Assembly (NCBI GenBank): GCA_944393335.1
Contig: CALXZV010000001.1
Span: forward strand, 1-36,786
Length of the DNA stretch: 36,786 bases
Origin: an uncultured Clostridia bacterium
GTDB taxonomy: Bacteria > Bacillota > Clostridia > TANB77 > CAG-508
Direction of reading: 5' to 3'
The translations under genes were made by a program, and so were the position numbers. The notes beneath the pieces are model-generated. The model was given only the letters and a program-made list of their open reading frames with translations, did no database searches and was not told where the DNA came from. This document shows positions 1 through 31,778 of the stretch, piece after piece (the first letter of the stretch is position 1; each line of letters begins with the position of its first letter).

Positions 1-11
1 AGGGAATTTAA

Positions 12-242: not shown

Positions 243-293
243 TAAATTCACAATTAAAAATCTCTATTATTTTATATAATAGTACTAAATATG

Positions 294-335
294 GAGGTTA
301 CCTAAATTATTCGTATTTAGGTAGCCTCTATTATA
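294..335 (+). terminator. Stem-loop after the pilin gene (possible attenuating terminator)
   Basis: gaggttacctaaat (294-307) pairs with atttaggtagcctc (315-328), 14 bp with one G-T pair. The downstream T tract is weak. Confidence 0.45.
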
Positions 336-395
336 CTAGTAGAGAGTAGTTATACTTAAAAAGGTTAATTATTCTTATTTAAAAAGGAAAATGCA

Positions 396-1190
396 ATGAA
401 CATAATTTTATATATAATAATATTTATAATGGGAAGCGTTTTTGGAAGCTTTTTGACACTTGCAACCTACAGAATACCTTTAAACGAAGACATAACACAT
501 AAGCATTCATATTGCCCAAAATGCAACCATAAACTTAGCTTTTTAGATATGATTCCAATTCTTAGTTATTTATGTATTAAAGGAAGATGCAGATATTGCA
601 AAGCCAAAATAAGTCCACGATATTTTATAATAGAAATATTATGTGGTTTATCATTTGTACTACTTGCACTTACTCTTGGAGTAAATGTATATACTATAAA
701 TGCAAATGTAATTATCAACTTCATTTTAGGAGCTTTGTATATTGTTTTCTTATTTTTAATAGCGGGTATAGACATAGAACACCATTATATAGATAAACGT
801 GTATTGGTATATGGAATAGTTGTTCTTTTCTTTTCTTTAATATATGAATTTATTTATGGACAAGATTTTAACGTAAATAGAGTTGTAATTTATTTTGTAA
901 TTATAATGATAGTGTTACTTGTAAATACATTTGAAATAAAGAAAAAAGGCAAAGACAGTTATGCAATAAATATTATACTTTTATGCTTTATAATGACAAT
1001 GTTTACTTATGAAATAGTTACTATTATTTCAATAATAATGACTTTATTTATGATAGCATTTTATGAAATAATCGATTCTATAGTAAAGAAAAACAAAGAT
1101 AAAAATAAAGAACAAAAGATACCTATAGCATTTTATCTATGTATTGCTAACTGCATAACAATTTTTATAACAAATGTTATCTTAATATAG
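396..1190 (+). CDS. pilD: Prepilin peptidase (A24 family, PilD/ComC-like)
   Basis: 264 aa polytopic membrane protein. The N-terminal CPKCNHKLSFLDMIPILSYL..GRCRYCKAKIS four-Cys motif is typical of prepilin peptidases. Confidence 0.9.
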   Translation: MNIILYIIIFIMGSVFGSFLTLATYRIPLNEDITHKHSYCPKCNHKLSFLDMIPILSYLCIKGRCRYCKAKISPRYFIIEILCGLSFVLLALTLGVNVYTINANVIINFILGALYIVFLFLIAGIDIEHHYIDKRVLVYGIVVLFFSLIYEFIYGQDFNVNRVVIYFVIIMIVLLVNTFEIKKKGKDSYAINIILLCFIMTMFTYEIVTIISIIMTLFMIAFYEIIDSIVKKNKDKNKEQKIPIAFYLCIANCITIFITNVILI

Positions 1191-1201
1191 TAGGTGATTA
1201 A

Positions 1202-1627
1202 ATGAAAAAAATTATGGCAAAATTTAATAAAGAACATGGCGCAACAGCTTTAGACATAACTACTGGTGCTTTAATATTTATACTGTTTACATCAATTATT
1301 TTTACATTATATTTGCTAATATATAAGCAATCTTCACTTATAAAAATTCATCAAGATGCAATGGGCTATATGATTCAAATTTGTGAAGATATTGATATGC
1401 AAGATTATATTGTGACAGAAGATTTGGAAGGATATAAAAATCAAATAATTAATAAAATAAATTTACCAGAAGATAGATATACACTAACTTTACAGCAAGA
1501 AAAATATATTGATACTCACCCAGAAGCAAATGATATTGTGAAAAAAATTATTGTAAATATTAAATATACTTTTGACAATGAAGAAAGAGACATAGAAATA
1601 GCAAAGATAAAAGTTAAAGAGCAATGA
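1202..1627 (+). CDS. Hypothetical membrane-anchored protein, possible minor pilin or pilus accessory protein
   Basis: 141 aa with an AGGTGA RBS. It has a single N-terminal hydrophobic segment (ITTGALIFILFTSIIFTLYLLIY) and sits between pilD and a pseudopilin gene. I recognise no family. Confidence 0.5.
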   Translation: MKKIMAKFNKEHGATALDITTGALIFILFTSIIFTLYLLIYKQSSLIKIHQDAMGYMIQICEDIDMQDYIVTEDLEGYKNQIINKINLPEDRYTLTLQQEKYIDTHPEANDIVKKIIVNIKYTFDNEERDIEIAKIKVKEQ

Positions 1628-1655
1628 TATAAATTTTATTAGAAAGGAATGAAGT

Positions 1656-2114
1656 ATGAAGTCTGAAAAAGGTATAACTTTAATAATACTAGGAATTTAT
1701 GTTGTAGTTTTTAGTATAGTTATAGCACTTTTAGCAAGTTTAAGCAGTTATATTTATAACAACTTAGGCGGTATTAGTGACAGTAGTATAGATGCAGTAG
1801 AGTTTAACAAATTTAATATGTATTTTGTCGAAGATGTAAAAACAAATAAGCAAGCGCTTGTAAGAAAACTTGCTGATGACAATAACAGGGAATTTATTCA
1901 AATTGCTTTTCCAGATGGAGATGTTTACACATATACTATAGGAGATGACAGCATATATAAGAATAATCAAAAAATTGCTAAGGATATATCTGATTTTAAT
2001 GCAGAGGGATTTTTAAAAGGCGATAAAATGTATATAGAAGTATCAATAAAAATAGGAACAGATGAAGAAACAAATTACAACAAAACAATTGATTATGTTT
2101 TAAAATATTGGTGA
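1656..2114 (+). CDS. Pseudopilin-like protein with prepilin-type leader
   Basis: 152 aa. MKSEKG/ITLIILGIYVVVFSIVIALLA has the same K-x-x-G/ITLI leader as ORFs 12-242 and 30923-31666. Confidence 0.6.
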   Translation: MKSEKGITLIILGIYVVVFSIVIALLASLSSYIYNNLGGISDSSIDAVEFNKFNMYFVEDVKTNKQALVRKLADDNNREFIQIAFPDGDVYTYTIGDDSIYKNNQKIAKDISDFNAEGFLKGDKMYIEVSIKIGTDEETNYNKTIDYVLKYW

Positions 2115-2131
2115 TTTGAAAGGAGATAAAA

Positions 2132-3760
2132 ATGGCTACAAATCAAAGACTACCTTTAGGTATAGAACTTGTAAAAAGAGGTATTGTAAAGCAAGAAGAT
2201 ATTACTCAAGCTTTGGAATATCAAATGACACATCCAAAGGAAAAATTGGGTGATATATTAAATGATCTAAGATTAGCAGACCCCAAGCTATTATTAAATG
2301 CAATGGGGGATGTCTTTGGTGAGAAAGTAATTTATTTAACTGATGAAGATGTAAAAATAGATTTAACAAAATATATTTCTGTTGATATTGCAAAAGAATC
2401 AAATGCAATACCTTTTGAAGTAGATAATGGTACAATAAAGGTTTGCTTTGCTGATGTAAGTAATAAGAGCCAAGTAGAAACTGTTAGACTATTAATGCTT
2501 AACAAAGGCTTAGTAATGGAAAGATACATTACATTTAAGTCAAATATTGAAAAGGTATTAAATACAATTACGACTGTTTCTACAGAAACGATTGACACAG
2601 ATGCTACCGGAACTACAATAGTAGATAACATTATTAGAAATGCAATGGCAAAAAGAGCAAGTGATATTCATGTTGAGCCACTTGAAGATAGTGTTAGAGT
2701 AAGATATAGAATTGATGGACAATTATTTACAGTTGCAAAAATAGATAAAGAAAAACAAACTCAAATAATAGGTAGATTAAAAGCAATTTCTAATATGCAT
2801 CAAGAAAAGCAAGAACCTCAAGATGGTAGAATTATAATGTATCCAGACTACAATATTCGTGTATCTTCACAAAAAAATATACATGGAGAAAAATTTGTTT
2901 TAAGATTACTAAAAAAGGATACAGATATTAAGAGTTTGTTTGAATTAGGCTACCCAGAAGATCAAAAGTTGTTAAAAGATGCATTTGATAAAAGAAATAG
3001 TATAACAGTTATTGCTGCGCCTACTGGTGAAGGTAAAACAACAACACTTTATAGTGTTATAAATTACTTAGATAGGCCAGAAATAAATATAACAACAATT
3101 GAAGACCCAGTTGAAATTCGTATACCAGGCCTAAACCAAATTGAAATAGATAATAAAACAACATTTGCAGGATCTTTAAGAACAGTTTTAAGACAGGATC
3201 CAGATATTATTTTGGTAGGTGAAATAAGAGATCCAGAAACAGCAGAAATAGCAATGCAAGCTGGACAAACTGGTCACTATGTACTTTCTACAATACACAC
3301 AATAAATGCGATAGAAGTTGTATCAAGACTTAGAAAAATGGAAGTATCAAACTATGATATTTCAAGTACACTTGCTACATCAATTTCCCAAAGATTGATA
3401 AGAAAACTTTGTCCACATTGCAAACGAGAAAGAGAATTTACTGAAGAAGAAAAGAAAATAATTAAATCAATTGGACAAAAATATGGTGTTGAGTTTGATT
3501 TAACAAATGCAAAAACATATGATGCAGTTGGATGTGACAAATGCAATCAAAGTGGATATTTTGACAGAGTAGCAATATTTGAAACACTTCTTATTACAGA
3601 CCCAATAAAAGAGCTTATAGTTAATAATGCATCAACACTAGAAATTAGAGAAGAAGCATACAAAGAAGGCTATAAACCAATGATTATAGAAGGGTTAAAA
3701 AAGGTTATAAACGGAACTACAACATTAGAAGAGTTAAACAGTAAATTACTATTTTATTAG
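2132..3760 (+). CDS. pilB: Type IV pilus assembly ATPase (PilB/GspE family)
   Basis: 542 aa. It has an N-terminal MshEN-like domain, a Walker A APTGEGKTTT, GEIRD, and a C-terminal CPHC...CDKC tetracysteine motif. Confidence 0.9.
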   Translation: MATNQRLPLGIELVKRGIVKQEDITQALEYQMTHPKEKLGDILNDLRLADPKLLLNAMGDVFGEKVIYLTDEDVKIDLTKYISVDIAKESNAIPFEVDNGTIKVCFADVSNKSQVETVRLLMLNKGLVMERYITFKSNIEKVLNTITTVSTETIDTDATGTTIVDNIIRNAMAKRASDIHVEPLEDSVRVRYRIDGQLFTVAKIDKEKQTQIIGRLKAISNMHQEKQEPQDGRIIMYPDYNIRVSSQKNIHGEKFVLRLLKKDTDIKSLFELGYPEDQKLLKDAFDKRNSITVIAAPTGEGKTTTLYSVINYLDRPEINITTIEDPVEIRIPGLNQIEIDNKTTFAGSLRTVLRQDPDIILVGEIRDPETAEIAMQAGQTGHYVLSTIHTINAIEVVSRLRKMEVSNYDISSTLATSISQRLIRKLCPHCKREREFTEEEKKIIKSIGQKYGVEFDLTNAKTYDAVGCDKCNQSGYFDRVAIFETLLITDPIKELIVNNASTLEIREEAYKEGYKPMIIEGLKKVINGTTTLEELNSKLLFY

Positions 3761-3776
3761 AAAGGAAAAATAAATT

Positions 3777-4901
3777 ATGAATATAAATGCTATTTTATCG
3801 GAAGCTAAAAAAATGAAAGCATCAGACGTTCATTTTATACCTGGAATCAAGCCAAAAATAAGAGTAAATAGAGATTTAATAGAGCTTGAACAATATGAAC
3901 CTATAGACAAAGACGACATATTAGAAGTTTATGATTATTTCCTAAAAGGAAATGTTGACAAAGATGCTTATTTTAGGGAACACAAGGTTTTAGATACATC
4001 TGCAGAATTTGAAGATATACGTTTAAGAGTAAATATATCTTACTCTGATGGGCTTCCTGTCATAATTACAAGACTTATAAGAAATGAACTTCCAACATAT
4101 GAAGAACTTGGAGTTCCAGATATAGTTAGAAGAATGACAAATCAAACACAAGGTTTAATACTAGTTACGGGTAAGACAAACTCTGGTAAATCAACAACAC
4201 TTAATGCTTTAATTAACTATATAAATGATAATGATAATAAAAAAATACTTACACTAGAAAGCCCAGTAGAATACAAGCATAAGTGCAAAAAGTCAATAAT
4301 AGTACAAAAGGAAGTTGGAGTTGGTGGAGATGTACCATCATATAGTATAGGTACAAAGAACTCTTTAAGAGAAGACTGCGACATACTTGTAATAGGTGAG
4401 ATTAGAGATAAAGAAACAATGGAAGCAGCTATAGAAACAGCAGAATCAGGACATTTAGTAATAGGTACACTTCATACAAAATCATGTGCAGAAACTGTGG
4501 ATAGAATGATTAACTTCTATGAAGTAGGTGATCAATCACAAGTTAAATACCTAATTGCTTCTTTACTAAAATTGGTTATTTCTCAAAGATTAATTAAAAA
4601 TAAAAGGGGAACACTATCATTAGTACCAGAAGTAATGGTTGTAGATAATGTAGTATCTGGTTTAATAAGAAAAGAAAAACTAACTACTTCAGAAATAGAA
4701 GACGCTATACAAAGTGGTTCAGCAAATGGAAGTATAGGTTTAATAAATTCTCTTGCAAAATTATTTACAGATGATATAATTACTCTAGATCAAGCTAAGG
4801 CACAAGTTGAAGAAAAGAATATAGAAGTACTTAATAGAACAATAATGCAAATGAAATTGAAAAAAGAAGAAGCAGAAGACCAAAATTCTAATAATTATTA
4901 A
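3777..4901 (+). CDS. pilT: Type IV pilus retraction ATPase (PilT family)
   Basis: 374 aa. Motifs are Walker A GKTNSGKSTT, IGEIRD and GHLVIGTLHT. It lacks the long N-domain of PilB. Confidence 0.85.
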   Translation: MNINAILSEAKKMKASDVHFIPGIKPKIRVNRDLIELEQYEPIDKDDILEVYDYFLKGNVDKDAYFREHKVLDTSAEFEDIRLRVNISYSDGLPVIITRLIRNELPTYEELGVPDIVRRMTNQTQGLILVTGKTNSGKSTTLNALINYINDNDNKKILTLESPVEYKHKCKKSIIVQKEVGVGGDVPSYSIGTKNSLREDCDILVIGEIRDKETMEAAIETAESGHLVIGTLHTKSCAETVDRMINFYEVGDQSQVKYLIASLLKLVISQRLIKNKRGTLSLVPEVMVVDNVVSGLIRKEKLTTSEIEDAIQSGSANGSIGLINSLAKLFTDDIITLDQAKAQVEEKNIEVLNRTIMQMKLKKEEAEDQNSNNY

Positions 4902-4940
4902 TTACAAAAGCTAAAAATATAATAAAAGGAGGACTAAGTT

Positions 4941-6290
4941 ATGCCAGAGTATGTATACAAGGCGGTTGACGAAAATGGCATTGTTGTAAAAAATAGGGTT
5001 CAAGATAAAAGTAAACAGAACCTTATCAAAAAGCTTAAGATTAATGGACTAATGCCTATAAACGTTACTCAAGTAAGTTTTGGTAAATACAAAAAGGGCG
5101 GAATAAAAAGAAATGTAACAAATATTGATGAAATAATGCAATTAGCCAATTCCGCGAATATTGCACAAAAAAAGGACACAAGAAAATTCTCAATTGTTGA
5201 AAAATTGAATATGTCCTTAACTAAAACGCAAAAAGTAACAAGTAGAGATCTAGTTATATTTACTCAAAATTTGTATTTACTAAAAAAGGCTGGATTTAAC
5301 AATGTGCATGCATTAGGAACAATAATACAATCAACAGAAAATATTACCCTAAAAGGTATACTTGAAGATATATTAGCTGGTGTAGAAGCCGGAGATTACA
5401 TGTATACTACTATGGAATACTATTCTGATATATTCCCATATATATATATTAACTTAATAAAAGTTGGAGAATTATCAGGATCACTTGAAGAATCTTTAAG
5501 GCAAGCAGTGGAATATTTGGACTCATCAGATGCACTTAGCAAAAAATTAAAGAAAATATTAATACCAAATTTAGTACAATTTGTTGTACTTTTAGTGTTA
5601 TTATTCTTTGGAAGTATGTATGTGGTGCCAATTATTCAAGATATATTTGCACAAGTTGGAACAACAGAAAAATTGCCATCTTATACAATAGCATTTTCTA
5701 ACTTCTTAACAGCAATTCAGCAAAATTGGTTTATTCCAACGGTAATTATAACGGCTATTATAGTTGCTATAGCACTATATATTAGAACACCAAGAGGAAA
5801 ATATAGATGGGATTACTTTAAATATACAATGCCTATATTTGGACAGCTTATATTTGCTATAGACTTTTCAAGATTGACAAAGGCAATGATGTTAAACTTA
5901 AAAAATGGTATGAGAATTCAAGAGGCATTAGATGTAAGTAAAAACGTTGTAAAAAACTTGGTAATGCTTTCAATAATAGAAACAGCCATAAACAATATTA
6001 TAGTTGGTGACTCATGGGTTGAACCATTTGAAAAATCAGGATTAGCAGAACCTATGATAACAGAAATGTTAAAAATAGGTATGCAAACCGACTTACCAGC
6101 AATGATGGATAAATTGGTTGAATACATGGATATGGATATTGACCAAATCATAGAAAGAATAGTAAAAATATTGCCACAAATATTGTACTCAATAATAGGT
6201 GTTATAATTATACTTATTACAGTTGTAGTACTTGTACCTTGTATTCAAGTTTATATGGGTACGTTCTTATTCTCAGCAGCAGGATTCTAA
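4941..6290 (+). CDS. pilC: Type IV pilus platform protein (PilC/GspF family)
   Basis: 449 aa with two GspF-type repeats and three hydrophobic segments. It lies directly after pilB and pilT. Confidence 0.85.
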   Translation: MPEYVYKAVDENGIVVKNRVQDKSKQNLIKKLKINGLMPINVTQVSFGKYKKGGIKRNVTNIDEIMQLANSANIAQKKDTRKFSIVEKLNMSLTKTQKVTSRDLVIFTQNLYLLKKAGFNNVHALGTIIQSTENITLKGILEDILAGVEAGDYMYTTMEYYSDIFPYIYINLIKVGELSGSLEESLRQAVEYLDSSDALSKKLKKILIPNLVQFVVLLVLLFFGSMYVVPIIQDIFAQVGTTEKLPSYTIAFSNFLTAIQQNWFIPTVIITAIIVAIALYIRTPRGKYRWDYFKYTMPIFGQLIFAIDFSRLTKAMMLNLKNGMRIQEALDVSKNVVKNLVMLSIIETAINNIIVGDSWVEPFEKSGLAEPMITEMLKIGMQTDLPAMMDKLVEYMDMDIDQIIERIVKILPQILYSIIGVIIILITVVVLVPCIQVYMGTFLFSAAGF

Positions 6291-6315
6291 TGTTAATTGG
6301 AACAGTTATTGTTGA
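6291..6315. repeat. Degenerate type-1 repeat unit abutting the pilC stop codon
   Basis: tgttaattggaacagttattgttga resembles tgtcaattgggacggttctatttga but has several substitutions. Confidence 0.4.
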
Positions 6316-6497
6316 TTGTCAATTGGGACGGTTCTATTTGACACAATTAAATTAATACTTTATTCGCCAAACAATATATCTATTTTCACATTCTCGGCGC
6401 GGGTCGCTGCTTGCTCCAGCTTGAGAATGAAAAATAGACATATTGCTTTGGCTTTTAAATAGAATTTTGTGTCAATTAGAACCGTCCCAATTGACAA
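6316..6497 (+). mobile_element. 182-bp MITE-like element, copy A (type-1 units as terminal inverted repeats, GC-rich hairpin core)
   Basis: The left end ttgtcaattgggacggttctatttgacaca (6316-6345) is inverted at 6468-6497. The interior forms a long imperfect hairpin (6366-6452) capped by ggcgcgggtcgctgcttgctccagctt. It contains no ORF. Confidence 0.85.
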
Positions 6498-6516
6498 CAA
6501 AAAATAGGAGTATCAT

Positions 6517-7428
6517 ATGAAAATTGGAATAGACATTGGCGGTAGCCATGTTGCTACTGGTTTAGTAGATAAAAATGGTGAGCTTATTTCAAAAGAAAGT
6601 AGAGATATAAATATTTCTAATATAAAAGATGAAAAAAGAGTTGAAAGTCTACTTGTAGAAATTATAGAAAATGAAATCAGCATGCTTTTAGAAAAAAATG
6701 ATTTTACAGTAGGTGACATATCTAAAATTGGTATTGCAGTTCCAGGAAGCCCAAAAAACGGGAAAATTCGCAATTTGGTAAATTTACATATAAAAGAATT
6801 TAATTTGGGTGAAGAATTAAACAAAAAATACAAAGTAAATGTAAAGATAAAAAACGACGGAAAATGTGCAGGTTTAGCAGAAAAGAAATATGGCTCATTA
6901 AAAAAATACAAAGACTGTGTATTTTTATGCATAGGAACTGGAGTAGGAAGTGCTGTATTTTTAAATGATGATTTGTTAGAACCAAAGCAAAACCCGGGTT
7001 TTGAGTTTGGTCATATGGTTATCGACAAAGAAGGTAGAAAGTGCAATTGTGGAAAAAATGGATGTTTTGAAACATATGCCTCAATGAAAAGATTTAAGGC
7101 AGAAGCAATTAACACATTTAAAATGAGCAATACAACAGAAGCAGAAGAAGTGCAAATGTATATTAGAAAAAACATGGATAAAAAGAGAGTGAGAGACTTT
7201 GTAGATGAATATTTAGAAAATGTCAGCATTGGCCTTTCAAACATAATAAATATATTCGAGCCACAAGCTATTAGCTTTGGAGGAAGTTTTTCATATTATT
7301 GTGATATATTTTTGCCAATATTGAAAGAAAAATTGGATAAACTAAAATTTAATAAAGATACAAAAGTAGATTTAACTACAGCAAAATTAAAAAATGATGC
7401 AGGAATAATAGGAGCAACTGAAATATAA
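6517..7428 (+). CDS. glcK: ROK-family glucokinase
   Basis: 303 aa. It has the N-terminal ATP-binding motif MKIGIDIGGSHV and the ROK zinc motif GH..(x)..CNCGKNGCFE. Confidence 0.85.
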   Translation: MKIGIDIGGSHVATGLVDKNGELISKESRDINISNIKDEKRVESLLVEIIENEISMLLEKNDFTVGDISKIGIAVPGSPKNGKIRNLVNLHIKEFNLGEELNKKYKVNVKIKNDGKCAGLAEKKYGSLKKYKDCVFLCIGTGVGSAVFLNDDLLEPKQNPGFEFGHMVIDKEGRKCNCGKNGCFETYASMKRFKAEAINTFKMSNTTEAEEVQMYIRKNMDKKRVRDFVDEYLENVSIGLSNIINIFEPQAISFGGSFSYYCDIFLPILKEKLDKLKFNKDTKVDLTTAKLKNDAGIIGATEI

Positions 7429-7466
7429 AATATTTGTCTTTCAAATAATATTAAGCATAAGATAAA

Positions 7467-7496
7467 AATAGGCTTGTTTTCACTAACAAGCCTATT
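7467..7496. terminator. Bidirectional stem-loop between convergent glucokinase and small-ORF genes
   Basis: aataggcttgtt (7467-7478) pairs perfectly (12 bp) with aacaagcctatt (7485-7496). An A-run lies upstream and a T-rich stretch downstream. Confidence 0.65.
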
Positions 7497-7695
7497 AATT
7501 GTTTTCTTGATTATCTTCCTTTGAGTCTTTAGGATTTACATTTTCAGGAATGATAATAATTTGTTTTTGATTTTCTTCAGGTTTTTCCATAATTAAACTA
7601 TCTCTAACATTGGAAATATTTAAGTCTTTAGAATTACCTTTAACAATTTCAATTTTCTTTGGTTTACGCTCATTTTCATTATTTTCTTCTATCAT
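7495..7695 (-). CDS. Small acidic hypothetical protein
   Basis: 66 aa, rich in Glu, Asn and Lys. A GAGGTGG RBS lies about 6 nt upstream of the ATG. I recognise no family. Confidence 0.5.
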   Translation of the reverse strand: MIEENNENERKPKKIEIVKGNSKDLNISNVRDSLIMEKPEENQKQIIIIPENVNPKDSKEDNQENN

Positions 7696-7768
7696 AGTAC
7701 CACCTCATATTTTTAAATACTTAAACTTTATATAAAAAATATAACATAAAAAAATGAAGATGTCAAAG

Positions 7769-7950
7769 TTGTCAATTGGGACGGTTCTAATTGACACAAT
7801 TAAATTAATACTTTATTCGCCAAACAATATATCTATTTTCACATTCTCGGCGCGGGTCGCTGCTTGCTCCAGCTTGAGAATGAAAAATAGACATATTGCT
7901 TTGGCTTTTAAATAGAATTGTGTGTCAAATAGAACCGTCTCAATTGACAA
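7769..7950 (+). mobile_element. 182-bp MITE-like element, copy B (same orientation as copy A)
   Basis: The interior is identical by eye to copy A. I found only 4 substitutions, all in the terminal type-1 units (7769-7798 and 7921-7950). Confidence 0.85.
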
Positions 7951-7953
7951 CTT

Positions 7954-8220
7954 TTATAATCTCTTGAATTTCTCAACAATTGGATTTAATAAATCTTGAA
8001 CATCAATTTTAAGAACAACTGCAATTGCACAAATTTCATAATCTCTAACAGTTCTTTGATTATTCTCAATTCTATGCAAACTAGTTATTGGAAGATTTAC
8101 GTTTAGGAGCATTAATTGATTAGAAAGAGTTTCGAGAGATATACCTTTCTCTTTGCGTTTCTCTCTTAAGATTGGACCAATTAGGTTAAGATTACCCTCA
8201 TATTTTCCAAAATTATTCAT
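7954..8220 (-). CDS. XRE-family helix-turn-helix transcriptional regulator
   Basis: 88 aa. LREKRKEKGISLETLSNQL...SLHRIENNQRTVRDYEICAIAVVL is a typical Cro/C1 HTH. Confidence 0.8.
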   Translation of the reverse strand: MNNFGKYEGNLNLIGPILREKRKEKGISLETLSNQLMLLNVNLPITSLHRIENNQRTVRDYEICAIAVVLKIDVQDLLNPIVEKFKRL

Positions 8221-8367
8221 AAAATATCCTTTCTGCTATGTAAAGAAAATATGTATAATAGACAAAAAATTACATAAATATAAAAAATTTCAAATACAAA
8301 AATATTATATAAGTAAATTAAAAAATGCATATTACCACCAGTGTGAAAAAACGAGAAAATTTGTTCC

Positions 8368-8396
8368 TTGCAAACTTTAGTAATAGATGATATAAT
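8368..8396 (+). promoter_or_regulatory. Sigma-A-type promoter upstream of scpB
   Basis: TTGCAA (8368-8373), 17-nt spacer, TATAAT (8391-8396). Confidence 0.6.
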
Positions 8397-8501
8397 AAAT
8401 GCATTATAAAAATTGTGTAGAAACTGGGTTTTACAAGGACATAAAAGTAAAATATTTAAATATTAAAATAACAAAATATTATAAAAGGATAAAAAATAAA
8501 T

Positions 8502-9176
8502 ATGGAAAAAGAAAAATTAAAAGGGGTAATTGAAGCAATTTTATTTTCAGCAGGGAGAGTAGTAAAAATTAGAGAACTTATGACATTATTAGAAACAAAT
8601 TCAGATGAAATTATTTCTAGTATAGCTGAGCTTGAAAAAGAATATAATGCACCAGCTAGAGGTCTTGAAATAGTACGCGTAGAAGATGGCTATCAGATGG
8701 CTTCTAAAAAAGAATATCATGAATACATTTATCCAATGCTTAGCAAGAGTGCAAAACCAACTCTTTCGCAGGCTTCACTTGAAGTTCTTAGTATAATTGC
8801 TTACAACAGTAGAGCAACAAAAGCAGACATAGACACCATAAGAGGAGTAGACTCATCAGCTTCTTTATATAGGTTATTAGAATATAACTTAATTGAGCAA
8901 GCAGGTAAGGCTGACTTACCAGGTAAGCCAATGACCTATAAGGTAACAGACGAATTTCTAAAAATGTTTGGATTAAAGAGTATTAAAGAATTGCCAGATT
9001 TGCCTAAGTATAAATTGGATAGCAATAGACAAATAGTTATAGATGAGTTGGAAGATCAGGAGAGCAGCGCTGACAAAAATATGGATGAGGATAATGAACA
9101 AAATTACCAAGAAAATAGTAATTTGCAAAAAAATACGGAGGCTCCAGAACCAAAAGATGGTGAGGATAACATTTAA
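8502..9176 (+). CDS. scpB: Segregation and condensation protein B
   Basis: 224 aa. It aligns by eye to B. subtilis ScpB (IEAILFSAG..., LSQASLEVLSIIAY, IDTIRGVDS, FLKMFGLKSIKELP) and carries an acidic C-terminal extension. Confidence 0.9.
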   Translation: MEKEKLKGVIEAILFSAGRVVKIRELMTLLETNSDEIISSIAELEKEYNAPARGLEIVRVEDGYQMASKKEYHEYIYPMLSKSAKPTLSQASLEVLSIIAYNSRATKADIDTIRGVDSSASLYRLLEYNLIEQAGKADLPGKPMTYKVTDEFLKMFGLKSIKELPDLPKYKLDSNRQIVIDELEDQESSADKNMDEDNEQNYQENSNLQKNTEAPEPKDGEDNI

Positions 9177-9193
9177 AAGCTATTAGGATAAAA

Positions 9194-9294
9194 TTTTCAG
9201 TTGGGGACGGTCCTAAAACGAAAAAAATACGATTTTTATTTATTGAGCCATAATTGAATGATTTTTTCGTTTTAGGACCGTCCCCAACTGAAAA
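9194..9294. repeat. Type-2 repeat doublet (inverted pair) between convergent scpB and the DUF4364 gene
   Basis: ttttcagttggggacggtcctaaaacgaaaaaa (9194-9226) is inverted at 9262-9294. The spacer is about 35 nt, and the right arm abuts the stop codon at 9295. Confidence 0.85.
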
Positions 9295-9828
9295 TTATTT
9301 TTTAGTTAGCAATCCAATTAATTGAGGGTATAAATTTGTAGCGTTTTTCTTCCAATTATCTACAATATTTTGAGCTTGTTCTCTTGAATATGCAAAAGTT
9401 TTTATTTCAAAAATAACCTCATTTTCTTCAACAATTTTGCACACAACTTCATATTCGTTTTCACTCTTTGGAGTGTACTCAGAAACAATAGACTGAGCAT
9501 TTTCAAACATTTCTATATTACTTTTTAAATTAGTGTCAACTCGAAGTTTTATAATTCCTGGCAATATGTCTAAAGTTAAATCTAAGGTGTTTTTGCCAGC
9601 TTCAGTAAGTTCATATACATCTTGAGTTTCTTTTGTATAGCGTACAACAAATTTGGCATCAATTAAATCTAGCAAAAATTGTTGAAAGTAAAAGTAGTTT
9701 AAATCAACAGCTGAACTAACAATACTATACAATGCATCATTTGTAATTGGCTTTTTAACAGTATCTAATACATATAAAATTAAAACTTTGTTTTCAGCCA
9801 ATGTTTCGCTATCAGATGTAATTTTCAA
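9295..9828 (-). CDS. DUF4364-family protein
   Basis: 177 aa. The N-terminal winged-helix-like NKVLILYVLDTVKKPITNDALYSIV and overall layout match my recollection of DUF4364 proteins found near scpB in Clostridia. Confidence 0.7.
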   Translation of the reverse strand: MKITSDSETLAENKVLILYVLDTVKKPITNDALYSIVSSAVDLNYFYFQQFLLDLIDAKFVVRYTKETQDVYELTEAGKNTLDLTLDILPGIIKLRVDTNLKSNIEMFENAQSIVSEYTPKSENEYEVVCKIVEENEVIFEIKTFAYSREQAQNIVDNWKKNATNLYPQLIGLLTKK

Positions 9829-9927
9829 ATTAATTTCAACTCCTTATACGTATTTGATTATAAATTTTATATAAAGAAAAACACAAATATGTTGGCAAAT
9901 AAACAATAAAATTTATAAAATCAAAAA

Positions 9928-9956
9928 TATTATAGCACAAAATGAGTGCAAATTCA
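9928..9956 (-). promoter_or_regulatory. Sigma-A-type promoter for the DUF4364 gene
   Basis: On the minus strand: TTGAAT (9956-9951), 17-nt spacer, TGcTATAAT extended -10 (TATAAT at 9933-9928). Confidence 0.6.
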
Positions 9957-10043
9957 ACAGTTTATGAAAGTCGAATAAGAAAAAGATACTGTTTAGTAAG
10001 AATATGTAGGCTATTTTAAATATATTACAAAACAGTAAGACTT

Positions 10044-10070
10044 TGTCAAAAAATGTCGAATTTTGTCGAA
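10044..10070 (+). promoter_or_regulatory. Three phased Spo0A-box-like heptamers
   Basis: TGTCAAA (10044), TGTCGAA (10054) and TGTCGAA (10064) lie in direct orientation with exact 10-bp spacing. The 0A-box consensus is TGNCGAA. Confidence 0.55.
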
Positions 10071-10099
10071 AAGTTTTGGAAAAATTTAGCACAAATATA

Positions 10100-10128
10100 T
10101 TGACATTTTATGGCAAATAATGTAATAT
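10100..10128 (+). promoter_or_regulatory. Sigma-A-type promoter with no obvious downstream CDS for about 620 bp
   Basis: TTGACA (10100-10105), 17-nt spacer, TAATAT (10123-10128). Confidence 0.5.
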
Positions 10129-10750
10129 ATAGTCATGCTACTTAGCAAGGCAAAATATTATTCACACATATTTTAATTATAATATTGTACAAGCTGTTTT
10201 TATAATTAAAATAAATTCAAAAGAAAATTAATTTATAATAAAAACATTATAATCTACAAAAGAAATCCAAAAATATTTAAATAATTACATATAATTAGTT
10301 ATTAAGCTTGTAGAGGAAACAAAAAATAGGTTAATGGTAATTAATTCTAATAATGGAAAAATTCTTCCTTTCCATATTGTAAGACACTGCCTTAATAATA
10401 CATATTTTTGATTTGTCTTCAAAATTTCCCCCAAAAAAATAAATTGTGCCCCCCAAAAGCTCCAATTTATATTTAGTTTCCTCTACAACTCCTTTTATTA
10501 TATTATATTTTGTCAAGATCCTCTTACTAACTATTTCTCCATAGTTAGTAAGGGGGCAATATTATAATTTTAAAGGTAAATTATAAAAATTTAAAAAACA
10601 GAAAATGATGAAAAAACATTGAAAAATATTTTAAATTTTGTTAAAATAAATTCATAAATTAAAAAAATTGATGTGTAGATTTAAAAATAGTTAAATAAAA
10701 TTTTTTAGAAAATAAAATTTAAACTTAAAATAAAGAGAGGAGAATAATCA

Positions 10751-11506
10751 ATGCGAATAAGATTTAAACCATGGGCAAGAGAAGAGCTAGAAACCAGTCC
10801 ATTTTACATAGATAATCCACAAATGTTTAAAAATAAGTGGAAAACTGCATTTCCAAATGATTATCCAATTTATTTGGAACTTGGTTGTGGCAAAGGCAAT
10901 TTTATAGCTCAAATGGCAAGCAAAAATAAAGACAAGCATATTAACTATGTTGCGATAGATTTAGTTGATAGCATGCTTGGCATAGCCAAAAGAAATGTGG
11001 AAAAAGAATATGGCATTAGGGCAACATTGCAAAAAGAAGAAATAGAAAATGAAATTGAAAAGCAAAAAATTGTTACAAATCTTAGGCTTACTCGTTATGA
11101 CATAGCTCTCATATCTAATATATTTGGAAAAGAAGATAATATACAAAGAATTTACATTAATTTTTGCAATCCATGGCCAAGGGGCAAGCATCACAAAAAA
11201 AGACTTACACATCCAAGACAACTTGAGCAATACAAAACTTTTCTTGCCAAAGGTGGATACATCTTTTTTAAAACAGATGATGACTATTTATTTGAAGATA
11301 GTATTAAATATTTTCAAACTGCAGGGTTTGTTATAGAGAAGTCAACCTATGATTTAGCAAGTGAACAAAACTTTTGGTTAGGAGAAGAAAATATTGAAAC
11401 AGAGCATGAAAAAATGTTCAAAAAAGATGGAATTAAAATAAAAGCGTGTATTGCTAAAAATGAAGATGTAGTAGCTTTTGATGAAGAGATAGAAAAAGTA
11501 GGATAG
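10751..11506 (+). CDS. trmB: tRNA (guanine46-N7)-methyltransferase
   Basis: 251 aa with the SAM motif ELGCGKGNF and the TrmB signature NFCNPWPRGKHHKKRL. RBS is GAGAGGAG. Confidence 0.9.
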   Translation: MRIRFKPWAREELETSPFYIDNPQMFKNKWKTAFPNDYPIYLELGCGKGNFIAQMASKNKDKHINYVAIDLVDSMLGIAKRNVEKEYGIRATLQKEEIENEIEKQKIVTNLRLTRYDIALISNIFGKEDNIQRIYINFCNPWPRGKHHKKRLTHPRQLEQYKTFLAKGGYIFFKTDDDYLFEDSIKYFQTAGFVIEKSTYDLASEQNFWLGEENIETEHEKMFKKDGIKIKACIAKNEDVVAFDEEIEKVG

Positions 11507-11599
11507 ATTGCTGACCGTCGAACAATTTTTATTCAATTTTAGCATTTATATTATAAAAAAGACTAATATATGTGCTGGAGCTTTTAGCAAATGAAGCAA

Positions 11600-11640
11600 A
11601 GCGACCTTCGAGACTTTCTCAAGGTCGCTCCAAATTTTTC
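11600..11640. terminator. Bidirectional terminator between convergent trmB and the amylase gene
   Basis: The GC-rich stem agcgacctt (11600-11608) pairs with aaggtcgct (11621-11629), followed by ccaaattttt. Confidence 0.7.
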
Positions 11641-11664
11641 TTTCAATATAAAGCTGAGTGGTGC

Positions 11665-13132
11665 TTATAAATTATACATATTATCTTTTTTAATCCATAC
11701 AGAAACGCTACCACCATTTACATAAAAAATGCCATTTCCATCTTTATCTACATACACCGTTTCTTTTATATTACCAGTGCAGTCGTACAATATACTATTT
11801 GCCAAGTTTTTACCAACATTCATGCATTTATGACCACCGTCGCCATCACTTAAAATAACAGCCATTCCAGAATCTTGGTGGTAATAATCACCTTCTCTAA
11901 CCCAACCTATAATATTTGCGTCATCTAAATAATCTCTTTGTTTGCCATATGCCAAATATTTTCTAGCTAAAAGTAATATGTTCAAAATTTCTTTCATAGG
12001 TGGTATATTTTTAAAAGGCACACCATAATAATCTCCATAAAATACACAAGGAATTCCTTCTTGCCTTAGCAAAATGCAAGCATAGGCAAGAGGCTTAAAC
12101 CATTCTTTAACCCATGACTCTAAGCTTTGACCGAGGCTCAGTATCATGATTATCTACAAACGTTACAGCTTTTGTAGGTCTTCTGTCTACTAATGTATCT
12201 TCAAAAAGATTTCGCATATCATAATGCCCAAAACTTTCAGATGCAATTTTAAAATGGTCATGAAGCGGAACATCAAATAGAGTATCTATTTCATCATTTC
12301 TTTGCAAATAATTTAGAAGCGAATCAATATTGCAACTAAAATATTCTCCAACAGTAAATAAATCTTTGTCAGTTTCGGCTTTTAGATCATGAAGCCATCT
12401 TTTGTAAAAAGAAGAGCGAATATGCTTAATTGCATCTAACCTAAAACCATCTACATTAGTTTGCTCTAAAAACCATTTGCCCCATCTAAAAAGGTCATCA
12501 ACAACATCCAAATTGTTAAAATCTACATCACAACCCATTAAATAGTCATAATTGCCAAGTTCTTTATCAACATCATTGCTCCAATGCTTTCCATAAAATC
12601 TAAAAATACCATGTTCTTTTTGCTTGTCATCATAGTCTATGCCATTAAAATGCGACCAGTCTAAATTGAAATCTGAATAGGTATTATTTCTACCTTTAAA
12701 ATTAAATTTAGTCCAAGCTTCAATTGTTCTATATGTTCCAATAACTTCGTTTCTATTATTTGGGTTAACTTTATATGCAATAATTTCTTCTTTTTCATCT
12801 GCTCCAAATCTATGATTTAAAACAATATCTGCCAAAACTTTTATACCACATTTTTGCAAATATTTAATTGCATCTAAGTATTCTTGCTTAGTGCCATATT
12901 TGGTACGAATACTGCCTTTTTGCATAAATTCGCCCATATCATATAGGTCATATACACCATAACCTGTATCATTTATTCCACCAGCCGACTTAAAGCAAGG
13001 TGGAAGCCAAATATAATTTATACCTAATTTTTTTAAATCTTTACCAACATTTTGAAGGCTTTTCCATAACATGCAATCATTTGGCATGTACCATTCAAAA
13101 TATTGCATCATTGTATCATTTGTTTCTTTCAC
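11665..13132 (-). pseudogene. Cytoplasmic GH13 alpha-amylase (Bacillus licheniformis/AmyA type) disrupted by a +1 frameshift
   Basis: ORFs 12107-13132 and 11665-12147 together align to this amylase family (MQYFEWYMPND, VDGFRLDAIKHI, FVDNHDTEP | GQSLESWV..WFKPLAYA). The frames switch at cct-c-ggt, near plus-strand position 12133. There is no signal peptide. Confidence 0.85.
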
Positions 13133-13319
13133 TTAAATATCATCCTTTCTGACTTTAAGCTAAAATCTATATTTTGAAATATTATATCACTAGAAAAATT
13201 TCTTGACAATTCCTTTTTTTAGTTATGCTCATATTTGAGCTAAAATTTTAAAAAACAATAGAAATTTATGAAAAAATATTATATAATAATGAAGATAAAA
13301 AATTCGAAAGGAAATTCCA

Positions 13320-14477: not shown

Positions 14478-14629
14478 AATTACTGCGAGTATTAATATCT
14501 AAATTATTATACAAAATTCACATAATAGACATAATATTGCTTTAAAATTAATATATATACAAAATTACCTAGAAATATTTTAGTGTTAAATGGAGACTTA
14601 AAATGTAGCCAAAAAGAAAGGATGATTTT

Positions 14630-16875: not shown

Positions 16876-16883
16876 AATTTTTT

Positions 16884-16950
16884 AAGTTGGGGACGGTCCT
16901 AAATCGAAAAAATTGTCAAAATTGTTAAAAGGGACGGTTCTAAATGACAA
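16884..16950 (+). repeat. Type-2 / type-1 repeat tandem (heterodimer), copy D
   Basis: aagttggggacggtcctaaatcgaaaaaa (16884-16912) is followed directly by ttgtcaaaattgttaaaagggacggttctaaatgacaa (16913-16950). The type-1 unit carries an ~11-nt insertion. Confidence 0.8.
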
Positions 16951-17916: not shown

Positions 17917-17926
17917 TGCATTTTTT

Positions 17927-17984
17927 CAGTTGGGGACGGTCCTAAATCGAAAAAGTTGTCAAATGGGACGGTTCTATTTGACAA
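17927..17984 (+). repeat. Type-2 / type-1 repeat tandem (heterodimer), copy E
   Basis: cagttggggacggtcctaaatcgaaaaag (17927-17955) is followed directly by ttgtcaaatgggacggttctatttgacaa (17956-17984). Confidence 0.85.
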
Positions 17985-26356: not shown

Positions 26357-26428
26357 TTGTCAAATGGGACGGTTCTAAATGACAATCACACTGATGTGAT
26401 TGTCATTTAGAACCGTCCCATTTGACAC
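26357..26428. repeat. Type-1 repeat doublet forming a near-perfect 34-bp-arm palindrome between spo0A and ftsZ
   Basis: ttgtcaaatgggacggttctaaatgacaatcaca (26357-26390), loop ctga, inverted copy (26395-28) with 33 of 34 positions complementary, followed by aaaaattttttt. Confidence 0.9.
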
Positions 26429-30771: not shown

Positions 30772-30833
30772 TGTCAATTGGGACGGTTCTATTTGACACA
30801 AAATAGTGTCAAATAGAACCGTCCCAATTGACA
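30772..30833. repeat. Type-1 repeat doublet (REPIN-like), copy G
   Basis: tgtcaattgggacggttctatttgaca (30772-30798), spacer caaaatag, perfect inverted copy (30807-30833). Confidence 0.9.
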
Positions 30834-31697: not shown

Positions 31698-31778
31698 TTG
31701 TCAGTTGGGATGGGGTTGTCAATTGGGACGGTTCTATTTGACACTATTTTGTGTCAAATAGAACCGTCCCAACTGACA
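31698..31778. repeat. Type-1 repeat doublet, copy H, with partial reduplication in the left arm
   Basis: The left arm reads ttgtcagttggga + tggggttgtcaattggga + cggttctatttgaca. The spacer ctattttg is the reverse complement of the copy G spacer. The right arm is tgtcaaatagaaccgtcccaactgacaa (31751-31778). Confidence 0.85.

What the first reader, a model, noticed from the sequence alone, without database searches (positions are those of the whole stretch)
6316..7950. Two ~98% identical 182-bp MITE-like elements with a GC-rich structured core flank glucokinase as direct repeats
Copies at 6316-6497 and 7769-7950 differ at only 4 positions by eye, and all 4 lie in the terminal type-1 units. The 122-nt interior appears identical. 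That interior folds into a ~27-bp imperfect stem (6366-6395 with 6423-6452) that has bulges and one A-C mismatch. The stem is capped by ggcgcgggtcgctgcttgctccagctt, which is 19 of 27 G+C by hand count in an otherwise strongly AT-rich window. The cap has its own small stems (gcg/cgc and gctg/cagc). Such a compositional island with conserved structure suggests a structured-RNA cargo, such as a small RNA or a transposon-end-derived RNA, rather than filler. The two copies lie in the same orientation and bracket a 1.27-kb segment holding the ROK glucokinase and a 66-aa ORF. This is a ready substrate for recombinational deletion, amplification or cassette-like mobility.
Basis: seen in the sequence. 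Interest (0 to 1): 0.7.

Follow-up and report, generated by a model that had tools for sequence, protein, structure and literature searches.

The report
Nested palindromic repeat flanking glucokinase
The two near-identical 183-bp sequences around the glucokinase gene are copies of a multi-copy, non-coding palindromic repeat (selfish-DNA type) found only in a small group of uncultured AT-rich Clostridia, and nothing indicates that it is an RNA gene or that it is reshuffling the glucokinase gene.

Summary
6316-6498 and 7769-7951 are 183-bp direct repeats with 4 differences. Each has terminal inverted 27-nt "type-1" units and a 27-bp hairpin capped by a 27-nt, 70% G+C sequence.

The element is nested. 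A ~90-nt hairpin module sits at the centre of a head-to-head doublet of REP-like units. The same module occurs at 30 or more other sites in at least 5 MAG species. There it lies inside type-1 doublets, inside doublets of a second unit type, or with no units. Longer relatives (113-158 nt) have a larger GC-rich interior, so the cap looks like a deletion remnant.

The element is absent from both sites in more distant relatives. In a closely related haplotype other repeats replace it between conserved flanks. That is mobile-DNA behaviour.

The "structured-RNA cargo" reading is not supported:
- Rfam gives no match.
- Cap pairing shows no compensatory change.
- Orientation is random relative to transcription (6 sense, 8 antisense).
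- No conserved promoter or terminator accompanies it.

About 45 contigs of this lineage show no deletion or amplification of the glucokinase segment.

Verdict: a new member of the MITE/REPIN/BIME kind. The mobilising enzyme is unknown. Interest is modest.

The parts
6291..6316 (+). Degenerate type-1 unit remnant (TGTTAATTGGAACAGTTATTGTTGAT) directly after the pilC stop codon
   Evidence: Read from the sequence. A related TAATGTCAAATGGAAA follows the pilC stop in haplotype L046/L061.
6316..6498 (+). Copy A of the 183-bp composite element, lying between pilC and glk
   Evidence: It is 100% identical in 9 of 10 strains, and L004 carries a 7-nt deletion.
6317..6343 (+). Left type-1 unit of copy A (TGTCAATTGGGACGGTTCTATTTGACA)
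   Evidence: 12 units in the window against 0 expected.
6344..6365 (+). Left AT-rich linker of copy A
   Evidence: Homologous linkers occur in other type-1 composites (L015, L022, L040, L041).
6366..6395 (+). Left arm of the V1 hairpin module
6396..6422 (+). 27-nt GC-rich cap (GGCGCGGGTCGCTGCTTGCTCCAGCTT)
   Evidence: It matches the 5' part of the interior of the longer V3 relatives.
6423..6452 (+). Right arm of the V1 hairpin module
6453..6469 (+). Right AT-rich linker of copy A
6470..6496 (-). Right type-1 unit of copy A, inverted
6517..7428 (+). ROK-family glucokinase gene, bracketed by the two copies
   Evidence: PF00480.
7467..7496 (.). Ordinary bidirectional intrinsic terminator between glk and the 66-aa gene
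7495..7695 (-). Conserved 66-aa gene with no Pfam match. Its promoter-like site is at 7766-7738, just outside copy B.
   Evidence: Homologues of 59-67 aa lie at the same place in L044, L046, L048 and L059.
7769..7951 (+). Copy B of the 183-bp composite element. Units at 7770-7796 and 7923-7949, arms at 7819-7848 and 7876-7905, cap at 7849-7875.
7954..8220 (-). 88-aa HTH_3 (XRE-type) gene whose stop codon abuts copy B
9192..9296 (.). Head-to-head doublet of type-2 units (TTGGGGACGGTCCTAAA core) with no hairpin module
   Evidence: (I7: 35-nt arms, 100% complementary).
26358..26427 (.). Type-1 doublet without cargo
   Evidence: (I2).
30772..30833 (.). Type-1 doublet without cargo (two units separated by 8 nt)
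   Evidence: (D1).
31717..31778 (.). Type-1 doublet without cargo. With 30772-30833 it brackets a 247-aa gene.
   Evidence: (I1, I23).
16877..16949 (+). Tandem type-2 plus type-1 single units
   Evidence: (D4, D5).
17920..17983 (+). Second tandem type-2 plus type-1 pair, a direct repeat of 16877-16949

Best explanation
The two repeats are copies of a composite, non-autonomous palindromic repeat. It is selfish or neutral mobile DNA of the MITE/REPIN/BIME kind.

Anatomy (shown). A ~90-nt hairpin module, here called V1, has 27-28-bp arms that begin CAATAT and end ATATTG, and a 27-nt GC-rich cap. It sits at the dyad centre of a head-to-head doublet of 27-nt REP-like type-1 units. These units also occur alone, in tandem and as empty doublets throughout the window.

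Origin (inferred). The hairpin module is an internal-deletion derivative of longer elements of 113-158 nt. Those have the same kind of arms and a larger GC-rich interior. The cap is therefore what remains of that interior, not an RNA gene.

Spread (inferred). The module sits at the centre of pre-existing palindromes, including unit doublets of two different types. This suggests insertion at palindrome centres. The resulting composites then spread as whole units. This is inferred from the homologous linkers within each composite class. An unidentified trans-acting enzyme that recognises the terminal units or a single-stranded hairpin form could do this. So could homologous replacement between copies.

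History at this locus (inferred from shown comparisons). Both copies arose in the lineage of this haplotype and are now fixed. Copy A now separates glk from pilC by a very stable hairpin. In relatives, glk starts 17-43 nt after pilC. Any effect on glk expression is a side effect and was not tested.
For: - Family size: an exact 21-mer of the cap finds 21 loci in 5 MAG species, 13 of them in one MAG. A search on the outer stem that leaves the interior free finds 12 more.
- Nesting: the same module lies inside type-1 doublets (window A and B, L015, L022, L027, L032, L035, L040). It lies inside type-2 doublets (L013, L014, L016, L018, L019, L020, L026, L029, L033-L038). It also occurs with no units (L011, L028, L030, L031). 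Empty doublets occur in the window. Linkers are homologous within each composite class.
- Longer relatives: elements with V2-like arms have interiors that start GCGCGGGTCGCT..TCGCTCCAGCTTGC. These interiors fold weakly and have no consensus structure.
- Presence or absence: the pilC-glk gap is 17 nt in L044 and 43 nt in L048. In L059 it is 188 nt and holds an ordinary terminator. None has an element at site A or site B.
- Replacement: haplotype L046/L047/L061 is 97-98% identical to the window to the right of 9175. At site A it has a tandem array of 3-4 type-2 units. At site B it has a different ~115-nt palindrome. The site B replacement lies exactly between conserved flanks.
- Turnover elsewhere: one orthologous site holds V2 in one orientation in L017 and V1 in the other orientation in L040. 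A V3 copy is present in L045 and absent from the same place in L044, L046 and L048.
- Palindromic targets: 5 of 9 V2/V3 copies have copy-specific complementary flanks of 4-11 bp, against a maximum of 3 in mismatched controls.
- Against an RNA gene.
Against: - No transposase or other partner was found. The window encodes none, and whole genomes could not be scanned.
- No target-site duplication could be defined, because empty and filled sites are too diverged.
- Conservation is stronger than simple neutral decay predicts. In the orthologous pair L016/L020 the module is 87/88 identical. The flanking coding DNA is 87-90% identical, and the linkers are roughly half identical by eye. My own rough binomial estimate gives P of about 4e-4. 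This requires purifying selection, repeated gene conversion, or re-insertion.
- The interiors of even very divergent V3 copies stay at 51-64% G+C in a ~29% G+C genome. Pure junk would not be expected to do this.
- All strains of the window's haplotype carry both copies, so there is no sign of current activity.
Confidence: 0.6

Rival explanations
1. The host has adopted the element as a DNA site. The hairpin or cruciform and its conserved GC-rich cap, or the flanking units, would bind a host protein. Candidates are a nucleoid protein, a topoisomerase or a recombinase, as IHF and gyrase do at E. coli BIMEs. Alternatively the palindromes act as transcription barriers at gene ends.
For: - The module is more conserved than the neighbouring coding DNA in an orthologous pair.
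- The first 13 nt of the cap are nearly invariant across three stem variants and several species.
- 17 of 18 independent sites lie downstream of at least one gene end.
- L048 has an ordinary terminator hairpin where the window has a type-2 doublet.
- Function in either orientation suits a DNA-level site.
Against: - Close haplotypes do without the module at both glk sites.
- Several copies have altered caps (L013:4977, L034, L036, L038, L042, L043).
- The terminator scan finds no terminator-like site in the element.
- Most intergenic sites lie downstream of a gene by chance alone.
- No binding protein is known.
Confidence: 0.17
2. One reading: the GC-rich core is a functional structured RNA carried as cargo. 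It would be a small RNA, a transposon-end-derived guide-like RNA, or a cis-acting mRNA element such as a processing or stabilising hairpin.
For: - The fold is very stable (z = -14 to -16).
- It is a GC island in an AT-rich genome.
- The cap is conserved.
- The stem has a few compensatory changes: A-U to C-G in L030, and A-U/G-C alternatives at the A.C position. V3b has GC to AU changes in its arms.
- Copy A is probably transcribed with pilC-glk, because no promoter-like site was found for glk.
Against: - No Rfam family matches the window copies or the V3 relatives.
- The cap mini-stems show no compensatory change and break in variants.
- 18 of 28 stem pairs never vary.
- Orientation relative to flanking genes is 6 sense, 8 antisense, 3 convergent and 1 divergent.
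- By my count on the alignment, G.U-compatible mismatches occur on both strands about equally.
- Copies without flanking units have unrelated upstream sequence, so no shared promoter.
- The interiors of V3 relatives have no common fold.
Confidence: 0.12
3. The pair of direct repeats works as a recombination cassette. It would delete, amplify or mobilise the 1.27-kb glk segment, like an attC-bounded cassette.
For: - Two repeats of 183 bp and 98% identity lie in direct orientation 1,453 bp apart.
- Other genes in the window are also bracketed by unit pairs: 30772-30833 with 31717-31778, and 16877-16949 with 17920-17983.
- The left arm starts GCCAAAC, which resembles an attC R'' core (RYYYAAC).
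- L033 joins the left flank of one copy to the right flank of another.
Against: - None of the 22 and 23 contigs read (the two sets overlap in part) shows a deletion, duplication or solo-element form.
- The four A/B-specific differences are kept across strains, so the copies are not homogenising each other.
- glk is at the same place in relatives that have no elements.
- Copies are scattered over many contigs and not arrayed, and no integrase gene is in the window.
- L033 comes from a 3.6x-coverage assembly and may be chimeric.
Confidence: 0.05

Closest known systems
E. coli REP/BIME mosaics, and the REPIN doublets of Pseudomonas mobilised by RAYT transposases
   Same: - Short palindromic units occur at high density in intergenic DNA: 12 type-1 and about 6 type-2 in 36.8 kb.
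- They occur singly, in tandem arrays of variable copy number, and as head-to-head doublets that form long hairpins.
- Doublets are separated by other conserved motifs, giving a mosaic.
- Most lie downstream of genes.
   Different: - The units have 7-8-bp outer arms around an 11-nt asymmetric centre (GGGACGGTTCT). They do not have a GTAG or CGTC tag followed by an 8-9-bp stem and a 4-5-nt loop (PMC3733652).
- The full text of that survey never mentions Firmicutes or Clostridia, so it reports no such family there.
- The inner motif is itself a 90-nt hairpin with a GC-rich cap, and it also exists without units.
- No RAYT gene was seen.
Bacterial MITEs with internal variants or nesting (Neisseria Correia elements, enterobacterial ERIC/IRU, pneumococcal BOX and RUP, Bacillus cereus bcr1, Rickettsia RPE). 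Named from my own knowledge.
   Same: - Size of 100-200 bp with no ORF.
- Terminal inverted repeats.
- Tens of copies per genome.
- Presence or absence differs between close relatives.
- Size variants arise by internal insertion or deletion.
- They are often co-transcribed with neighbouring genes.
   Different: - No target-site duplication and no parent IS with matching ends were found.
- The interior is GC-rich in a 29% G+C genome.
- Two different kinds of terminal unit carry the same cargo.
- No sequence similarity to any phage or plasmid record.
Insertion sequences that target palindromes (IS1397 and ISKpn1 into REP loops; IS110-family elements into REPs). Named from my own knowledge.
   Same: The hairpin module sits at the dyad centre of pre-existing palindromes. 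These are unit doublets of two types, and other copy-specific palindromes.
   Different: Those are autonomous elements that encode a transposase. Here only non-coding elements were seen, so the targeting is inferred and not demonstrated.
Integron attC sites and gene cassettes
   Same: - Imperfect palindromes of about 60-140 bp at gene ends, with bulged bases.
- Direct repeats bracket single genes.
- The left arm GCCAAAC is close to the R'' consensus.
   Different: - The sites are dispersed and not arrayed.
- No integrase gene was found.
- The right end (GCTTTGGC) does not give the R' core.
- glk is at the same locus in relatives without the elements.

Membership tests
MITE (non-autonomous transposon derivative) | Small (under about 500 bp), no ORF, terminal inverted repeats | tested here: met
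   The element is 183 bp. The terminal arms are 40 nt and 90% complementary in copy A (I5), and 34 nt and 94% complementary in copy B (I11). No ORF of 60 aa or more lies within either copy.
MITE (non-autonomous transposon derivative) | Multi-copy and dispersed within a genome | tested here: met
   13 exact-cap copies lie on 9 contigs of one MAG, and 5 MAG species carry the family. Bystander copies in fetched loci suggest tens per genome.
MITE (non-autonomous transposon derivative) | Presence/absence polymorphism at orthologous sites | tested here: met
   Sites A and B are empty in L044, L048 and L059. In L046/L047/L061 they hold different occupants between conserved flanks. L017 and L040 hold V2 versus V1 at one site. 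There is no polymorphism among strains of the window's own haplotype.
MITE (non-autonomous transposon derivative) | Target-site duplication flanking the element | tested here: inconclusive
   No direct repeat is evident at the ends. Empty sites are 14-25% diverged, so the junctions cannot be defined.
MITE (non-autonomous transposon derivative) | A cognate autonomous element with the same ends | not testable with these tools
   None is present in the window or in about 600 kb of fetched loci. The only transposase seen is an IS66-family gene in L008, and I did not check whether the repeats flank it. Whole MAGs could not be scanned.
REP/REPIN (RAYT-associated) | A 20-40-nt imperfect palindrome, highly abundant in intergenic DNA, often as head-to-head doublets | tested here: met
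   The 27-nt unit occurs 12 times in the window against 0 expected. Doublets lie at 26358-26427, 30772-30833, 31717-31778 and 9192-9296, always in the same polarity.
REP/REPIN (RAYT-associated) | GTAG or CGTC tag at one end, an 8-9-bp (or longer) stem and a 4-5-nt loop | tested here: not met
   The unit is TGTCAAWT-GGGACGGTTCT-AWTTGACA, with 7-8-bp arms around an 11-nt centre that is not self-complementary. It starts with TGTC, but the architecture differs from that described in PMC3733652.
REP/REPIN (RAYT-associated) | A RAYT (IS200/IS605-type Y1) gene flanked by the repeats | not testable with these tools
   The Pfam domains on record for the genes of the syntenic contigs include no transposase other than IS66 in L008. 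A scan of 10 window ORFs also found none. Genome-wide search was not possible.
Rfam structured RNA family / sRNA gene | Match to a curated covariance model | tested here: not met
   The only hit at gathering score in the window is tRNA-Met. The best sub-threshold hit on the element is MIR812, at 37.5 bits against a gathering score of 80. The V3 relatives give none.
Rfam structured RNA family / sRNA gene | Covariation supporting a specific fold beyond a plain palindrome | tested here: not met
   In the stem, 2 of 28 pairs change on both sides and 18 never vary. The cap stems have 0 two-sided changes and up to 5 of 22 broken cells. The V3 interior has a covariation term of -0.18 kcal/mol.
Rfam structured RNA family / sRNA gene | Consistent strand, with its own promoter and terminator or a fixed position relative to genes | tested here: not met
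   Orientations are 6 sense, 8 antisense, 3 convergent and 1 divergent. Copies without flanking units share no flanking signals. The scan finds no promoter-like or terminator-like site inside the element.
Integron attC / gene cassette | Arrays of cassettes next to an intI gene, with R''/R' cores RYYYAAC and GTTRRRY | tested here: not met
   Copies are dispersed over many contigs. No integrase domain appears among the genes on record or the 10 ORFs scanned. The left end GCCAAAC fits 6 of 7 positions, but the right end is GCTTTGGC.
Intrinsic terminator | A short GC-rich stem, a 3-8-nt loop and a following T tract | tested here: not met
   The scan reports only 7467-7496 in the region. The element has a 27-bp AT-rich stem and a 27-nt loop, followed by only TTTT.

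The most novel reading that the evidence does not exclude
The near-invariant GC-rich motif (GCGCGGGTCGCT...GCTCCAGCTTG) may be a functional recognition site. It is kept next to the left arm in three stem variants and across species, in a 29% G+C genome. It could be the site for an unrecognised enzyme that inserts hairpin-shaped single-stranded DNA at the centre of other palindromes. That would be a new hairpin-targeting mobile-element system in Firmicutes. Alternatively it could be the working part of a small RNA or DNA aptamer-like element that the host retains.
Probability: 0.15. Interest if true: 0.65.

Novelty: new member of a known kind. Interest (0 to 1): 0.33.

Why it matters
If the reading is right, this is ordinary selfish DNA, with three points of modest interest.
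- It adds a well-defined REP/BIME-like mosaic repeat system to an uncultured group of AT-rich Clostridia. One related contig of 1.55 Mb hints that their genomes are small. The broad REP survey read here never mentions Firmicutes or Clostridia.
- Its nesting gives a clean natural example of palindromes colonising palindromes. The same hairpin lies inside two kinds of unit doublet, and longer and shorter relatives sit at the centres of other palindromes.
- The repeats mark hot spots of haplotype turnover around the type IV pilus-glucokinase locus. They put a very stable hairpin between pilC and glk, which may change glk expression.

The unexplained strong conservation and GC-richness of the cap is the one feature that could lead somewhere new.

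Tried and rejected
- Rfam, on the whole window at gathering score and on the element and V3 relatives at E<=5-10: nothing meaningful.
- blastn of the element and of V3 relatives against plasmid and phage records: no match.
- Exact-pattern scans of viral contigs for the cap and both unit types: 0 hits.
- Full-text search for the unit and cap sequences: only chance primer matches.
- Literature search for MITEs in Clostridia and for repeats in segmented filamentous bacteria: nothing describing this family.
- The terminator idea: the scan finds none in the element, and there is no orientation bias.
- The attC/cassette idea: rejected on dispersal, lack of an integrase and the right-end core.
- The promoter-donor idea: the unit ends in a perfect TTGACA, but no suitably spaced -10 was found facing glk.
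- Strand assignment from G.U versus A.C mismatches: both kinds occur about equally, so it is uninformative (my count on the alignment).
- Naming the organism: cluster look-up gave no names. Record titles say only uncultured Clostridia or Clostridium.
- A suspected unit-mediated deletion of an aaRS gene next to the type-2 doublet: the junction lies outside the units.
- Search for an autonomous element with CAATATAC arms in the fetched loci: only short elements and one solitary arm.
Full report
**1. The observation**

The two sequences are real. 6316-6498 and 7769-7951 align without gaps over 183 bp with four mismatches, at 6337, 6467, 6476 and 6487 in copy A. Three mismatches are inside the 27-nt terminal units (6317-6343 and 6470-6496). 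The fourth is 3 nt outside the right unit. The 123-nt interior is identical in both copies.

The interior stem (6366-6395 with 6423-6452) has 27 pairs, a CA/A internal loop, one A.C mismatch and one bulged C. The cap (6396-6422) is 19/27 G+C in a window of 25-32% G+C. The element folds far better than shuffled sequence on both strands: -85.2 kcal/mol (z = -14.3) and -89.8 kcal/mol (z = -16.4). The terminal unit TGTCAAWTGGGACGGTTCTAWTTGACA occurs 12 times in the window against 0 expected. A second unit type, with core TTGGGGACGGTCCTAAA, occurs 6 times.

**2. Surroundings**

The window is housekeeping DNA of a spore-forming Clostridia bacterium. It carries a type IV pilus operon ending in pilC (4941-6290), ROK glucokinase (6517-7428), ScpB, Spo0A and FtsZ. 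No transposase or integrase domain appears among the genes on record for the syntenic contigs or the 10 window ORFs scanned.

Between the two copies lie glk, an ordinary bidirectional terminator (7467-7496), and a conserved 66-aa gene on the minus strand. That gene has a strong promoter-like site just outside copy B, at 7766-7738. No promoter-like site faces glk from copy A.

**3. The element is nested and belongs to a dispersed family**

An exact 21-mer from the cap finds 21 loci in five species-representative MAGs. All are labelled uncultured Clostridia or Clostridium, and 13 loci are in one MAG. A second scan required only the outer stem and left the interior free. It found 12 further metagenome loci, all with the same design.

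Laying the copies side by side shows a ~90-nt hairpin module, which I call V1. It runs GCCAAAC...cap...GCTTTGGC. It occurs in three settings:
- inside a head-to-head doublet of type-1 units, as in the window;
- inside a head-to-head doublet of type-2 units;
- with no units at all.

Linkers between units and module are homologous within each composite class. So each composite class seems to have spread as a whole. Doublets without any module are present in the window at 26358-26427, 30772-30833, 31717-31778 and 9192-9296.

A second stem variant, V2, carries the same cap between different arms (CAATATACATTCTCTCCTATTTCAC / GTGAAATATCGAGAACATATATTG). Its sequence blocks are in a different order from V1.

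Longer relatives, V3, are 113-158 nt. They have V2-like arms and a larger interior of 51-64% G+C. In three of the five V3 copies the interior begins with the cap sequence (GCGCGGGTCGCT..TCGCTCCAGCTTGC) and then continues. In the other two only a diverged version of that start remains. So the 27-nt cap of V1 and V2 looks like what an internal deletion left behind. The V3 interiors fold weakly and share no consensus structure.

**4. Is it an RNA?**

Several tests bear on this, and none supports an RNA gene.
- Rfam gives nothing at gathering score. Below threshold there are only generic long-hairpin miRNA models. The V3 relatives give nothing.
- On 22 distinct V1 copies, the long stem is 96.7% paired. 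However, 18 of 28 pairs never vary and only 2 show changes on both sides.
- The two small stems proposed in the cap show no two-sided change. They break in the variant caps.
- Caps do vary. L013:4977, L034, L036 and L038 share a different second half (GCTGCTTAAGCCTT). L042 and L043 have 1-2 changes.
- Relative to flanking genes, independent sites are 6 sense-tandem, 8 antisense-tandem, 3 convergent and 1 divergent. In the window itself, copy A is sense and copy B is antisense to local transcription.
- Copies without flanking units have unrelated upstream sequence, so there is no shared promoter.
- By my count on the alignment, mismatches that would be G.U on one strand or on the other occur about equally often.

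None of this fits a strand-specific RNA gene. Co-transcription with neighbouring genes remains likely, but it says nothing about function.

**5. Is it mobile?**

Within the window's own haplotype there is no sign of activity. All 22 contigs read with the identical glucokinase, and all 23 with the identical PilC, carry both copies at the same spacing. The two sets overlap in part. The four A/B-specific differences are conserved across strains. One strain has 7- and 19-nt deletions in the left linker.

Between haplotypes and species the picture changes.
- In L044 (glk 85% identical) the pilC-glk gap is 17 nt.
- In L048 (80%) the gap is 43 nt.
- In L059 (86%) the gap is 188 nt and holds an ordinary terminator.
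- None of these has an element at either site, and L044 and L048 have no units in 20 kb.

Haplotype L046/L047/L061 is 97-98% identical to the window to the right of position 9175, but only about 84% identical to the left of it. At site A it carries a tandem array of 3 or 4 type-2 units plus a hybrid unit. At site B it carries a different ~115-nt palindrome without the GC cap. The site B replacement lies exactly between conserved flanks.

Turnover is also seen elsewhere.
- One orthologous intergenic site holds V2 in one orientation in L017 and V1 in the opposite orientation in L040.
- A V3 copy after dpaA in L045 is missing from L044, L046 and L048.
- Five of nine V2/V3 copies are flanked by copy-specific complementary sequence of 4-11 bp, against at most 3 in mismatched controls. 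This means they sit at the centre of other palindromes, just as V1 sits at the centre of unit doublets.

**6. What remains unexplained**

In the orthologous pair L016/L020 the module is 87/88 identical. The flanking coding DNA is 87-90% identical, and the linkers have diverged heavily, to roughly half identity by eye. My rough binomial estimate gives P of about 4e-4 for so few changes at 11% divergence.

Divergent V3 interiors also remain GC-rich in a 29% G+C genome. Either there is selection on the module, or copies are kept alike by gene conversion or re-insertion. I could not separate these.

No partner enzyme was found. There are no matches in plasmid, phage or viral collections.

**7. Comparison with known systems**

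The units behave like REP sequences and REPIN doublets, and the composites behave like BIME mosaics. However, the unit architecture is not that of the GTAG or CGTC REP superfamilies, and the survey that defines them never mentions Firmicutes or Clostridia (PMC3733652). The whole element meets most MITE criteria. A target-site duplication and a parent element could not be shown. The attC, terminator and Rfam-RNA memberships each fail at least one tested defining feature.

**8. Verdict**

The MITE-like reading is supported and refined into a nested palindromic repeat. The structured-RNA cargo and active-cassette readings are not supported. This is a new member of a known kind, of modest interest. 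The conserved GC-rich motif is the only lead towards something new.

Noticed in passing
window 1-9170 versus 9175-16310 (compared with L046 and L047): Contigs L046 and L047 are 97-98% identical to the window to the right of about 9175. Across the pilus operon, glk, the HTH gene and scpB they are only about 77-85% identical. The type IV pilus-glk segment therefore exists as sharply divergent haplotypes in otherwise near-identical genomes, which suggests replacement by recombination.
   Followed up: partly
window 9160-9192: The window's lineage lacks a ~1.3-kb class II aminoacyl-tRNA synthetase gene (tRNA-synt_2b + HGTP_anticodon) between scpB and the DUF4364 gene. The gene is present in strain L003 and in L046 and L048. 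The last 17 nt of that gene are fused to the end of scpB. The junction lies outside the type-2 units.
   Followed up: partly
L046 9840-9990 and L047 9808-9990: A tandem array of 31-nt type-2 units downstream of pilC has 3 copies in one contig and 4 in another contig of the same haplotype. The unit arrays therefore change copy number.
   Followed up: partly
window 16877-16956 and 17920-17990: A tandem pair of a type-2 unit and a type-1 unit is repeated in direct orientation 1,043 bp apart (the type-2 part is 95% identical). It brackets about 960 bp with no ORF longer than 84 aa and a (TA)n run near 17806-17825.
   Followed up: partly
window 11665-13132 (minus strand): The alpha-amylase gene is split into two overlapping ORFs of 341 and 160 aa in the window, in all its strains and in L046. 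The relative L048 has a single 488-aa gene. This suggests a conserved frameshift or pseudogene.
   Followed up: no
L033 (metagenome contig, 3.6x coverage): Its left flank matches the left flank of copy L014 (88%). Its right flank matches the right flank of copy L013:2401 (98%). This is either recombination between two dispersed copies or a chimeric assembly across the repeat.
   Followed up: no
L048 13275-13340 versus window 9192-9296: Between the same convergent genes, the distant relative has an ordinary terminator hairpin (AAAAGTAGGACTTAA...TTAAGTCCTACTTTTT) where the window has a type-2 unit doublet. The doublets may therefore stand in for bidirectional terminators.
   Followed up: no
L022 100-134: A solitary V2/V3-type arm (CAATATACGTTCT) directly abuts the type-1 unit of a composite element at a contig end. 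This hints that composites can also sit inside V2/V3 elements.
   Followed up: no
L008 16790-18326: One strain carries an IS66-family transposase gene and a 128-aa ORF inserted between the amylase and MscS genes. The window lacks this insertion. I did not check whether the repeats studied here flank it.
   Followed up: no
window 6317-6343 and all other type-1 units: Each type-1 unit begins with TGTCAA and ends with TTGACA, so it carries a perfect -35 hexamer facing outward on each strand. No suitably spaced -10 was found next to copy A.
   Followed up: partly
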